Positions 1 to 3,000 of a DNA stretch of 64,000 nt are shown here, piece after piece. Source of the stretch: Escherichia coli (GTDB lineage: Bacteria > Pseudomonadota > Gammaproteobacteria > Enterobacterales > Enterobacteriaceae); assembly GCF_044324875.1 (NCBI RefSeq), contig NZ_CP172185.1; one strand, given 5' to 3'. How positions within the stretch are numbered: the stretch's first letter is position 1; each line of letters opens with the position of its first letter. A program made the position numbers.

Positions 1-3000
1 GTTCGGGATGGCGCGCCGCCAGCGAAGAGATAAACAGAAAACGTTGGCAAAAGCCGCTCTCTTTTGCCGCTTGCATCAGGCGCAGGCTGCCGTCAACGTT
101 ACAGCGGGTAAAAATCTCTTCTTTGTGTCCGCGCACTTGTCCGGCGCAATGGACCACCGCGCTGGCTCCGGCAACCAGTTCGCTAAGCGAATGTGTATCT
201 TCCAGCGAACCGCGCACCCAGATGAGATTATCATTGACGTGAGCGCGGGCAGTACGCGTCAATGCGCGAACGTGAAAGCCGCGGGCGAGCAGGTTATCGA
301 TAATATATTTACCGATAAACCCGGTAGCGCCCGTCACCGCGACAGTTTGATTCATGCCAGGGATTCCTGCACATGAAGGCTTGCAGCATAAGCCTTCTGA
401 TAGCGTTTTTTCGCTTCCGCACGGGCAGGCTTGCCGGAGGACGTTCGGGGAATACTGTGGGGCGGCAACAGATCGATAGCCGCGGTCACGCCAAATTCGC
501 TTTGGATCCGTGCTGCCAGCGCGTGGATAAGCTGCCCGCGACGTTCTTCATCGCTGATCCGACACTGGATCTGCAAAATGATTTTTTCCTGGGCGGTAAC
601 AAAAGCAATCGCATCGCCAGAATGAATTTCCGGTTCCTGTTCCGCAATATATTCAATATCTTGCGGCCAGATATTGCGGCCACGAATAATAATCAGATCT
701 TTAATGCGTCCGGTGACATACAGATAACCGTCCAGCAGATAACCGAGGTCGCCGGTGTCTAACCAGCCCGTCGCGGCAATCTCGTCTTGTGAAATCTGGT
801 CGCCAAAGTAACCGCTCATCAGGCTAGGGCCGGAGATGCAAATATGGCCTACCACACGTTCCGCGACAGGTATACCTGCTTCATTGCGGATTTCAATGCC
901 ATGTTCCGGCAACGCTTTACCGCAGTTGACGAAAGTCGATACGGCGCGTGTTTCAGCATCCGGCGCGACGGCTTTGCCCTGATATTCGAGGATGTCGCGA
1001 TCCACTTCGTTAACCACAACCCCGGAAGCTTCATCAGAGAAGCTGACAGCCAGCGCATTTTCTGCCAGTCCGTAGCACGGCATGAACGTTTTATCGTCAA
1101 AGTTAACCTGACGAAAACATTCAGCGAATTGATGGAGTTGTTCTGCGGAGATCGGTTCTGCGCCAATACCAGCGACGCGCCAGCAGGAAAGATCCAGTTC
1201 AGCGAGATCTTTTTCATTCACGCGGCGCTGGCACAATTCATAGCCAAACGGCGGCGCAACGGAAACGGTGCCGCGATTTTTACTGATCAATTTAAGCCAT
1301 TGCAGAGGACGCATGGCAAAATCCTGAGTGCGCAAATAATCTACTGAGAGCTGCGTGGCGACGGGGGTCAGGAGAAAGCCGACCAGTCCCATATCATGGT
1401 AGAAAGGCAGCCAGGAGACGCAGCGGTCGCCAGGGCGTAATTTAATGCCATCGTGGCTTATAGCACGTAGATTAGCCATCACTTCGCGATGGGTGATAAT
1501 GACGCCACGGGGAAAACGGGTGCTGCCGGAGGTGTACTGGAGGTAGGCGATATCGTTCGGAACTGGACGCTGGAGTGCAACATCGGCTTCCGGTAATGCC
1601 TTAAACCAGGCGTGGCTTAAAACATGTAATTCGGGTTTGTTATGCGTCGCGGCATTGACCAGCGGTAACCACTCATCACCAGTGATAATGGCTGCGGGCT
1701 GGCAACTTGCCAGTAAACCCTGCAGTTTGGCGCTCCAGGAATCCCGCTGACCGACGCCCATTGGAATCGCCAACGGGACGGCGACTAAGCCGGCATACTG
1801 GCAGGAAAAAAAAGCCTCTACGAACCCGCTACTGGTTTCGGCAATCAGCGCCACGCGATCGCCTTTTTTCAGGTTCAGCGATAACAACCGCTTCGCACCA
1901 GCTTCGGCACGCGCTTTTAACGTCTGATATTCCAGTTGATCTTCAAGTTGGCAACGTCTGTCATAAAAATTCATTCCGGCGCTACTCAGAGCGGCGTAGT
2001 CCAAAGCATCAACCAGCGTTGGAAAATCGGCATAGCGCATAGGTAGGGAATGCGTAAAGATTTTATTAGACATATACACCACGAAAAAATTGGATATCAA
2101 AAATAAAATGACAATAATGCGGTGGATTATATAGGCATAAAAGATAAATGAGATAGTATTTTCATCAGTGTGAAAATGAACATTGATTTAAATAATGAGT
2201 TTGAGTTTTTTTGTTTTTATTGTGAATGATATTTAATTTATGAATGTATTAAGAAGAAGCCTTGTCCGGTCGCCTTAAATCGACAAAAGGCATTGTGGCG
2301 CTTCTGTGTAGTCTCTGACCTTATCGTAATCATTAATAAATACTATTTATTCGTCGTTTGTATTCATTGGGTTGATTATTAAGGTGCCGTTCGTTGCTGT
2401 TGCAACCTGTTTGTCACCGTTAATTATTTGTTACCCACAGAACTATGGAATGCGATCTGCTGATGATTAAAATTGAAAAAGTAATTAATAAAAATGACCT
2501 TAAGGCATTTATCGCTTTTCCGTCATCACTTTATCCCGACGATCCAAACTGGATACCCCCTTTATTCATTGAACGCAACGAGCATTTGTCTGCGAAAAAT
2601 CCGGGGACGGACCATATCATCTGGCAGGCGTGGGTGGCAAAAAAAGCAGGGCAGATAGTTGGGCGTATTACCGCGCAAATCGATACCTTGCACCGCGAGC
2701 GTTACGGCAAAGATACCGGTCATTTCGGCATGATTGACGCCATTGATGATCCGCAGGTTTTTGCCGCGTTGTTTGGCGCAGCGGAAGCGTGGTTGAAGTC
2801 ACAAGGTGCAAGTAAGATCAGCGGTCCTTTCAGCCTGAATATCAATCAGGAAAGCGGATTACTGATTGAAGGTTTCGATACACCACCCTGTGCGATGATG
2901 CCACACGGCAAACCGTGGTATGCCGCGCATATTGAACAATTGGGTTATCACAAAGGCATTGATTTACTGGCGTGGTGGATGCAGCGAACCGATCTCACTT

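What the first reader, a model, noticed from the sequence alone, without database searches (positions are those of the whole stretch)
1..2100. Fatty-acyl-AMP ligase and SDR genes translationally coupled upstream of the yghO-like gene
The 3' end of an operon encoding an adenylate-forming enzyme whose stop overlaps (ATGA) the start of an SDR/epimerase-like gene suggests a lipid or acylated-metabolite pathway continuing beyond the window. As I recall, K-12 has an IS element near yghO, so this locus may be more complete here.
Basis: partly seen in the sequence, partly recalled or inferred. Interest (0 to 1): 0.35.

Follow-up and report, generated by a model that had tools for sequence, protein, structure and literature searches.

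The report
E. coli sphingolipid operon start (aasR–cerR)
These two genes open the already described E. coli operon that makes the ceramide (sphingolipid) backbone; most natural E. coli have it, and the K-12 lab strain lost it to an IS5-associated deletion.

Summary
On the minus strand, a 573-aa fatty acyl-AMP ligase gene (352..2073) ends in a TGA that overlaps the ATG of an extended-SDR gene (ATGA at 352-355). The window's left edge cuts that SDR gene after 118 codons.

Both genes are already known. The ligase differs by about 10 residues in 573 from the crystallised E. coli FAAL (PDB 3PBK). It is 97.9% identical to BL21(DE3) ECD_02851, which was shown to be AasR, an acyl-ACP synthetase that loads a dedicated carrier protein (AcpR) for serine palmitoyltransferase. 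The SDR is the counterpart of Caulobacter Epi/CerR, the 3-keto reductase of bacterial ceramide synthesis. yghO, transcribed divergently, is the counterpart of the N-acyltransferase Aca/bCerS.

Near-identical genomes show what lies beyond the window edge: the rest of the SDR, then acpR and spt.

In MG1655, IS5 replaces 8,381 bp, including all of window 1-2484. The DNA of 1-2100 is present in 4,101 of 5,426 complete E. coli genomes.

The order ligase, SDR, ACP, Spt recurs in Hafnia, Erwinia, Serratia and three distant metagenomic or MAG loci.

Verdict: already known, low interest. Still open are native expression, the final lipid, and the linked putative export genes.

The parts
352..2073 (-). 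aasR / EcFAAL: fatty acyl-AMP ligase (573 aa) acting as a specialised acyl-ACP synthetase; first gene of the operon
   Evidence: ORF. Pfam AMP-binding 1e-57. NCBIfam NF006624 873 bits, cut-off 600. PDB 3PBK matched full length at 1288 bits. 97.9% identical to BL21(DE3) ECD_02851. FAAL signature residues present.
1..355 (-). 5' 355 nt (118 of 304 codons) of the extended-SDR gene epi/cerR, cut by the window edge
   Evidence: Pfam Epimerase 1.6e-17, NmrA, NAD_binding_10. Identical to the N-terminus of the 304-aa protein in L001. 98.3% identical to BL21 ECD_02852 over these residues.
352..355 (-). ATGA stop/start overlap between the ligase and SDR genes, with an AGGA Shine-Dalgarno-like sequence 9 nt upstream
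   Evidence: Read directly. The same 4-nt overlap is annotated in ChlosBP-23-1, BL21, Hafnia and Serratia.
2074..2444 (.). 371-bp AT-rich (31.8% GC) divergent intergenic region between aasR and yghO; presumed to hold both promoters
   Evidence: The promoter scan was not above chance. No Rfam family matched. The sequence is poorly conserved outside E. coli except for the start-codon contexts.
2445..3587 (+). yghO (380 aa, intact): counterpart of the Caulobacter N-acyltransferase Aca/bCerS
   Evidence: 99.7% identical to BL21 ECD_02850. 44% identity and E=1e-107 to CC_1154 in Table S2 of PMC9386255. A 40-80% identical homologue lies beside the operon in all six other loci. No Pfam, NCBIfam or PDB match.
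2484..2485 (.). Position equivalent to the right-hand K-12 IS5 junction: everything to the left (window 1-2484) is absent from MG1655
   Evidence: blastn of L001 against MG1655, the MG1655 annotation, and the IS5-derived N-terminus of K-12 YghO.

Best explanation
Window 1-2100 holds the first gene, and the start of the second, of the E. coli dihydroceramide (sphingolipid backbone) operon aasR-epi/cerR-acpR-spt. The operon is transcribed leftwards and divergently from yghO.

Proposed pathway:
1. The ligase (EcFAAL = AasR) adenylates a free C12-C16 fatty acid. Its CoA pocket is blocked, so it passes the acyl group only to the phosphopantetheine arm of the dedicated carrier protein AcpR.
2. Serine palmitoyltransferase condenses acyl-AcpR with L-serine to give 3-oxo-sphinganine.
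3. YghO (Aca/bCerS) N-acylates the intermediate, and the SDR (Epi/CerR) reduces the 3-keto group with NAD(P)H. The product is dihydroceramide.

What is shown and what is inferred:
- Shown experimentally by others on about 98% identical proteins: adenylation, rejection of CoA, transfer to the cognate ACP, and 3-oxo-sphinganine formation when AasR, AcpR and Spt are co-expressed.
- Inferred from homology and conserved gene order: the reductase role of the E. coli SDR, the acyltransferase role of YghO, and the order of those two steps.
- The ATGA overlap is consistent with translational coupling of ligase and reductase. Coupling itself is not demonstrated.
For: - Structure match: PDB 3PBK 'Fatty Acyl-Adenylate Ligase' aligns over all 573 residues with about 10 substitutions.
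- FAAL features are present in the window protein. W221, M228 and F276 correspond to the paper's W224, M231 and F279. The FAAL-specific helix is TQDFAMR at 249-255. T80, P104 and T249 correspond to T83, P107 and T252, whose mutation abolishes ACP loading.
- PMC9386255: BL21(DE3) ECD_02851 is AasR_Ec. Together with AcpR_Ec and SPT_Ec it yields 3-oxo-sphinganine in vivo. ECD_02852 and yghO are named epi and aca. Identities to the Caulobacter proteins are 42% (AasR), 34% (Epi) and 44% (Aca).
- The window proteins are 97.9%, 98.3% and 99.7% identical to those BL21 proteins.
- Beyond the window edge, the ChlosBP-23-1 genome (99.9% identical over window 1-3600) and BL21 carry SDR-ACP-spt on the same strand.
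- Spt passes the NCBIfam serine palmitoyltransferase equivalog NF047599, 600 bits against a cut-off of 500.
- The order AMP-binding, SDR, PP-binding, Aminotran_1_2, together with a YghO homologue, recurs in Hafnia, Erwinia, Serratia and three loci whose SDRs are only 34-45% identical.
Against: - No study found here reports sphingolipids in unmodified E. coli. In PMC9386255 the products were described only after plasmid expression of the genes, so the native operon may be silent in the laboratory.
- The E. coli SDR and YghO are only said to 'might' perform their steps.
- The order of reduction and N-acylation is disputed between two groups.
- Only 118 of the SDR's 304 codons are in the window. 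The catalytic Y122-x3-K126 was seen in the near-identical genome, not in the window itself.
- No convincing promoter was detected in the spacer.
Confidence: 0.9

Rival explanations
1. The pathway is as above, but the SDR acts in the eukaryote-like order. It would be a 3-ketosphinganine reductase acting on the free long-chain base before N-acylation by YghO, rather than a ceramide reductase acting after N-acylation.
For: PMC9386255 favours this order and cites Olea-Ozuna 2021. Compounds migrating like sphinganine appeared in BL21 expressing Spt systems.
Against: Per, Stankeviciute 2022 and PMC11087976 propose acylation first, with CerR reducing the oxidised ceramide in Caulobacter. Nothing in the sequence discriminates between the two orders.
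Confidence: 0.35
2. The ligase and SDR form a fatty-acid reduction pair. The ligase would produce acyl-AMP or acyl-ACP, and the SDR would reduce it to a fatty aldehyde or alcohol, independently of sphingolipid synthesis.
For: The SDR N-terminus weakly matches NAD_binding_4 ('male sterility'/thioester-reductase type, 4.8e-12) and the TIGR01746 thioester reductase model, in both cases over the Rossmann motif only.
Against: - Those matches cover only about 30 residues of the dinucleotide-binding motif.
- The best full-length matches are to extended SDR ketoreductase and epimerase families.
- In every locus examined the SDR sits between the ligase and acpR-spt.
- The Caulobacter orthologue is required for dihydroceramide formation.
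Confidence: 0.04
3. This is an ordinary fatty-acid activation/degradation locus: a FadD-like acyl-CoA synthetase with an accessory dehydrogenase.
For: Generic AMP-binding domain, and weaker matches to long-chain-fatty-acid--CoA ligase models.
Against: - Every CoA-ligase model scores far below its cut-off, for example FadD at 99.9 bits against 884. The FAAL model passes.
- The CoA-pocket-blocking residues are present.
- EcFAAL is reported to reject CoA.
- No fad genes are nearby; the neighbours are acpR and spt.
Confidence: 0.01

Closest known systems
EcFAAL (PDB 3PBK; Zhang et al. 2011, as cited in PMC8460268 and PMC11837247) = AasR_Ec, BL21(DE3) ECD_02851 (PMC9386255)
   Same: Same protein: about 98% identity over the full length. 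Same neighbours and same position as first gene of the operon. Same FAAL-specific helix, pocket-blocking residues and ACP-pocket residues.
   Different: About 10-12 allelic substitutions. The BL21 annotation starts 11 codons later. Nothing functional distinguishes the window's copy.
Caulobacter crescentus dihydroceramide genes CC_1165 (aasR), CC_1164 (epi/cerR), CC_1163 (acpR), CC_1162 (spt) and CC_1154 (aca/bCerS)
   Same: Same five functions and the same order aasR-epi-acpR-spt. Second copies of LptF and LptG and a putative flippase lie nearby in both organisms.
   Different: Only 34-44% identity. Per, Caulobacter adds head-group genes and an LptC2 gene. No head-group kinase of the DAGK_cat type (the family of the Caulobacter ceramide kinase CpgB) is annotated in the enterobacterial blocks, which carry yghR/S/T, a YtfJ-like gene and a 274-aa protein instead. 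Native sphingolipid production is proven in Caulobacter but not in E. coli.
Mycobacterial FAALs (FadD32, FadD28 and others) feeding polyketide synthases
   Same: Same enzyme class and same logic: adenylate a fatty acid, bypass CoA, and hand it to a carrier-protein phosphopantetheine.
   Different: The acceptor here is a stand-alone 82-aa ACP that serves a PLP-dependent alpha-oxoamine synthase, not a PKS module. The FadD32 and FadD28 models score far below their cut-offs.

Membership tests
Fatty acyl-AMP ligase (FAAL; ANL superfamily) | AMP-binding domain with the ANL core motifs (A3 TSGST, TGD, A10 SGK) | tested here: met
   Pfam PF00501 1e-57. YTSGSTRFPRG at 181-, TGDLG at 441-, SSGKP at 546-.
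Fatty acyl-AMP ligase (FAAL; ANL superfamily) | Curated family model passed, and CoA-ligase models failed | tested here: met
   NF006624 scores 873 bits against a cut-off of 600. All FadD/CoA-ligase models are far below their cut-offs.
Fatty acyl-AMP ligase (FAAL; ANL superfamily) | Blocked canonical CoA pocket (W224, M231, F279), FAAL-specific helix (T252-R258) and FAAL-specific insertion, as defined on EcFAAL | tested here: met
   W221, M228, F276 and TQDFAMR 249-255 are present (paper numbering minus 3). The stretch in which I place the FAAL-specific insertion (about residues 360-383) shows one substitution against 3PBK in the printed alignment; the offset of the published insertion boundaries could not be fixed.
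Fatty acyl-AMP ligase (FAAL; ANL superfamily) | Biochemistry: forms acyl-AMP, does not form acyl-CoA, transfers to holo-ACP | not testable with these tools
   Published for the about 98% identical EcFAAL (PMC8460268) and for AasR_Ec (PMC9386255).
AasR (sphingolipid-specific acyl-ACP synthetase) | Orthology to CC_1165/ECD_02851 and linkage to acpR-spt | tested here: met
   97.9% identical to ECD_02851. acpR and spt lie downstream in genomes that are 97-99.9% identical over this region. The linkage holds in six further loci. 42% identity to CC_1165 per Table S2.
Epi/CerR (bacterial ceramide-pathway 3-keto reductase, extended SDR) | N-terminal Rossmann TGxxGxxG motif | tested here: met
   VTGATGFIG at residues 7-15, inside the window.
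Epi/CerR (bacterial ceramide-pathway 3-keto reductase, extended SDR) | Catalytic YxxxK | tested here: met
   Y122-ANS-K126 in the full-length protein of L001, which is identical to the window over the shared 118 residues. The motif itself lies outside the window.
Epi/CerR (bacterial ceramide-pathway 3-keto reductase, extended SDR) | Orthology to CC_1164 and conserved position between aasR and acpR | tested here: met
   34% identity, E=7e-38 and 94% coverage in Table S2. The SDR family has 470 representative clusters at E<=1e-30. All three distant members sampled sit in aasR-SDR-acpR-spt operons.
Epi/CerR (bacterial ceramide-pathway 3-keto reductase, extended SDR) | Demonstrated reduction of 3-oxo-sphinganine or 3-oxo-ceramide | not testable with these tools
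FadD-type fatty-acid degradation locus | FadD equivalog score and fad neighbours | tested here: not met
   The FadD model NF006523 scores 99.9 bits against a cut-off of 884. The neighbours are acpR, spt and yghO.

The most novel reading that the evidence does not exclude
In Enterobacterales the five ceramide genes may be one half of a fixed block of about 13 genes: yghO | aasR-cerR-acpR-spt | lptG2-lptF2-ytfJ-like-274-aa protein-yghQ-yghR-yghS | yghT. On this reading the second half flips, modifies and exports the lipid to the outer membrane, and the three P-loop kinase-like proteins YghR/S/T take the place of the DAGK-type ceramide kinase found in other lineages. Most natural E. coli would then make a so far unobserved, exported sphingolipid under conditions not yet identified. 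The K-12 orphan genes yghO, yghQ, yghR, yghS and yghT would be relics of this system.
Probability: 0.35. Interest if true: 0.55.

Novelty: already known. Interest (0 to 1): 0.17.

Why it matters
The finding adds nothing new, but the context is worth knowing. About three quarters of sequenced E. coli carry an intact pathway for a lipid class usually thought absent from this species. The standard K-12 reference lacks it because of an IS5-associated deletion. K-12-based lipid biology therefore misses it, and BL21 expression hosts contain it. Three things remain open: whether and when natural E. coli make sphingolipids, what the final molecule is, and whether the linked LptF/LptG paralogues and YghQ export it. 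The last point bears on a stated gap in the field, since no bacterial sphingolipid transporter has yet been identified (PMC11087976).

Tried and rejected
- Promoter/terminator scan of 1-3700: counts were no higher than in shuffled sequence, so no promoter is claimed.
- Rfam scan of 1-4600: no hits, so there is no known leader or riboswitch in the AT-rich spacer.
- Alignment of the spacer across E. coli, Hafnia and Erwinia: only the two start-codon contexts are conserved, and no shared operator was evident.
- Composition profile: the genes have 50-56% GC, like the rest of the chromosome, so there is no compositional sign of recent transfer. Only the spacer is AT-rich.
- A 794-aa 'SDR-Spt fusion' (P0140) looked like Rosetta-stone evidence. 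However, the ACP match lies in a different reading frame from the SDR and Spt matches. It is probably a gene-calling or assembly artefact in a MAG, and I did not use it.
- YghR/S/T were checked as possible relatives of the Caulobacter ceramide kinase CpgB. CpgB is a DAGK-type kinase with a GGDG motif, whereas YghR/S/T give only sub-threshold thymidylate-kinase and P-loop matches. I therefore do not treat them as related.
- PDB sequence searches for YghO and YghS found nothing.
- The Stankeviciute 2022 paper could not be read because it is not held. Its claims are cited only as relayed by PMC9386255 and PMC11087976.
- My first attempt at EcFAAL residue numbering was off. The paper's numbers equal the native position plus 3.
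- Published boundaries of the FAAL-specific insertion (Ile363-Val386): they did not map cleanly onto the window protein at either offset I tried, so the exact boundaries were left unresolved.

Full report
**Observation**

Window 1-2100 contains, on the minus strand, one long ORF (352..2100) and the start of a second that runs off the left edge.
- The first ORF, taken from ATG 2073, encodes 573 aa. It matches Pfam AMP-binding at E=1e-57 and NCBIfam NF006624 'fatty acyl-AMP ligase' at 873 bits against a cut-off of 600.
- Its TGA (352-354) overlaps the ATG (353-355) of the next gene, giving ATGA. An AGGA lies 9 nt upstream of that ATG.
- The second gene is represented by 118 codons. They carry a GATGFIG Rossmann motif and match Epimerase, NmrA and NAD_binding_10.
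- yghO (2445..3587) is on the plus strand. It is separated from the ligase gene by a 371-bp spacer of 31.8% GC.

The described features are all present. The two genes read leftwards, away from yghO.

**What lies beyond the window**

The region is E. coli chromosome. It is 99.9% identical over 1-3600 to strain ChlosBP-23-1.
- In that genome and in BL21(DE3), the ligase gene is followed on the same strand by the full 304-aa SDR, an 82-aa acyl carrier protein and serine palmitoyltransferase.
- The gene junctions are tight: a 4-nt overlap, a 31-nt gap and a 1-nt overlap.
- Spt passes the NCBIfam equivalog NF047599, 600 bits against a cut-off of 500.
- Immediately after spt, a convergent operon ends. 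It runs yghS-yghR-yghQ (449 aa)-274-aa protein-YtfJ-like-LptF-like-LptG-like.

The window therefore holds the 5' end of a four-gene operon.

**Identity of the ligase**

- The protein aligns end to end with PDB 3PBK, 'Fatty Acyl-Adenylate Ligase' of E. coli, with about ten substitutions.
- That enzyme, EcFAAL, was crystallised with lauroyl- and myristoyl-adenylate bound.
- It was used to define how FAALs reject CoA: bulky W224, M231 and F279, plus a FAAL-specific helix at T252-R258, block the canonical pocket. An alternative pocket guarded by T83, P107 and T252 admits the carrier protein's phosphopantetheine arm. EcFAAL loads C12 onto its cognate EcACP in vitro.
- All of these residues are present in the window protein at the paper's position minus 3.
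- The protein is 97.9% identical to BL21(DE3) ECD_02851. Padilla-Gómez et al. 2022 (PMC9386255) named that protein AasR_Ec. Co-expressing AasR_Ec, AcpR_Ec (ECD_02853) and SPT_Ec (ECD_02854) produced 3-oxo-sphinganine. AasR_Ec worked with its own AcpR but not with the Caulobacter one.

**Identity of the SDR and of yghO**

- The same paper assigns ECD_02852 as 'epi', a predicted keto-sphinganine reductase. It assigns yghO (ECD_02850) as 'aca', an acyl-CoA N-acyltransferase.
- Identities to the Caulobacter genes required for dihydroceramide are 34% for the SDR (E=7e-38) and 44% for YghO (E=1e-107). The Klein laboratory calls these proteins CerR and bCerS.
- The window's SDR fragment and YghO are 98.3% and 99.7% identical to the BL21 proteins.
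- For E. coli these two roles are only proposed ('might'). The order of reduction and acylation is disputed.

I tested the SDR's association independently.
- A search of 1.84 billion representative proteins gave 470 clusters at E<=1e-30.
- The three distant members I sampled (45%, 45% and 34% identity) each sit directly after an AMP-binding gene and before PP-binding and Aminotran_1_2 genes (in the MAG locus L009 these two are merged with the SDR into one called gene, which I treat as an artefact). A YghO homologue of 40-50% identity lies nearby in each case.
- Hafnia alvei, Erwinia sorbitola and Serratia rhizosphaerae show the same arrangement.
- The ligase stop and SDR start overlap or lie within 6 nt in every case. 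A literal ATGA-type 4-nt overlap occurs in E. coli, Hafnia and Serratia only.

**K-12**

- In MG1655, yghO (b2981) abuts IS5 (insH9), which abuts a shortened yghQ.
- Alignment shows that IS5 replaces 8,381 bp of the full locus. The missing segment runs from codon 356 of yghQ through lptF2/G2, spt, acpR, the SDR, aasR and the spacer to the first 40 nt of yghO. This corresponds to window 1-2484.
- K-12 YghO therefore has an IS5-derived N-terminus, and K-12 YghQ has 355 of 449 residues.

**Distribution**

- The DNA of 1-2100 is present at 80% coverage or more in 4,101 of 5,426 complete E. coli genomes. It is single-copy and chromosomal.
- SDR homologues of 64-88% identity occur in E. albertii, Citrobacter, Shimwellia, Pluralibacter, Serratia, Rouxiella, Sodalis, Hafnia, Kosakonia, Erwinia, Pantoea and Klebsiella.
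- The GC content of the genes matches the chromosome.

**Mechanism and its status**

Steps shown by others on near-identical proteins:
1. Fatty acid plus ATP gives acyl-AMP.
2. The acyl group is transferred to holo-AcpR, and not to CoA.
3. Spt condenses acyl-AcpR with serine to give 3-oxo-sphinganine.

Steps inferred from homology and gene order:
- N-acylation by YghO.
- 3-keto reduction by the SDR, giving dihydroceramide.

Not established:
- Native expression. The paper describes products only after plasmid expression.
- The promoter. The scan was not above chance and there is no Rfam element.
- The final head group and the export route.
- Whether the ATGA overlap actually couples translation.

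**Comparison and verdict**

This is the published E. coli sphingolipid-backbone cluster. Its first gene is a crystallised and biochemically characterised enzyme. The finding is real and correctly sensed as a lipid pathway, but it is already known, and I score it low.

The most interesting residue lies outside the window. The five ceramide genes stay linked to yghQ, a 274-aa protein, a YtfJ-like protein, LptF/LptG paralogues and yghR/S/T in every enterobacterial locus examined, even where the second block is inverted, as in Serratia. The distant loci carry a DAGK-type kinase instead.

For Caulobacter, second copies of LptC/F/G and a flippase have been proposed as sphingolipid transporters. The field states that no transporter has yet been identified. 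The enterobacterial block, and the idea that K-12's yghO, yghQ, yghR, yghS and yghT are its relics, is an untested lead.

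Noticed in passing
L001 4620-11954 (left of the window edge); also L004, L005, L006, L007: A second gene set is linked to the ceramide operon in E. coli, Hafnia, Erwinia and Serratia: yghT, yghS, yghR, yghQ (Polysacc_synt flippase-like, 449 aa), a 274-aa protein with no family match, a YtfJ-like protein, and LptF- and LptG-like permeases. In Serratia this block is inverted but still adjacent. No LptB-like ATPase is annotated in the block, and YghR/S/T give only sub-threshold P-loop and thymidylate-kinase matches. These genes are candidates for sphingolipid flipping, modification and export.
   Followed up: partly
L008 1428-2405, L009 2605-3609, L010 11454-12464: The distant versions of the cluster carry a DAGK_cat kinase (the family of the Caulobacter ceramide kinase CpgB) next to the operon. 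They lack yghQ, yghR/S/T, the YtfJ-like gene and the 274-aa protein. This suggests a different head-group chemistry in Enterobacterales.
   Followed up: partly
L002 (MG1655) 7044-10409: Annotated K-12 YghO (390 aa) begins with about 24 residues encoded by IS5 sequence, and K-12 YghQ is truncated at residue 355 of 449. Both K-12 'genes' are deletion remnants. The K-12 product name 'putative DNA-binding transcriptional regulator YghO' conflicts with the acyltransferase assignment.
   Followed up: yes
window 2040 vs 2073: Annotations disagree on the ligase start: 573 aa in ChlosBP-23-1 and 562 aa in BL21(DE3). Conservation of the upstream ATG context in Hafnia and Erwinia, and the crystallised construct, favour ATG 2073.
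   Followed up: yes
window 3594-3677: An 84-bp G-rich segment between yghO and glcC (…GGGCGATCCCTCGCCCCTCGGGGAAAGGGTTAGGGTGAGGGTGAAAAC…) is replaced by 9 bp in MG1655. Its core occurs once in the window, and no inverted repeat was detected. It may be a small intergenic repeat element.
   Followed up: partly
L005 6011-6736; L007 5800-6165: In Hafnia a 4'-phosphopantetheinyl transferase gene (4PPT_N + ACPS) sits next to the yghO homologue. In Serratia a prokaryotic diacylglycerol kinase gene does. These may be lineage-specific accessories, for example to activate AcpR.
   Followed up: no
L009 8001-10385: A gene is called as a 794-aa SDR-Spt fusion in a MAG. The ACP-like match lies in another reading frame, so the fusion is probably an assembly or gene-calling artefact.
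   Followed up: partly
window 1-17600 vs L001: The window is 99.9% identical to strain ChlosBP-23-1 over 1-3600 but only 97.4% over 1-17600. This implies a mosaic (recombinant) relationship further into the glc region.
   Followed up: no
E. coli genome hits H8, H18, H20: Some strains carry secondary disruptions of the locus: an ISVsa5 insertion splitting the ligase gene, an aerobactin (iucA) region abutting the spacer, and a strain retaining only about 300 bp of the SDR gene. About 850 of the 5,426 genomes lack even yghO.
   Followed up: no
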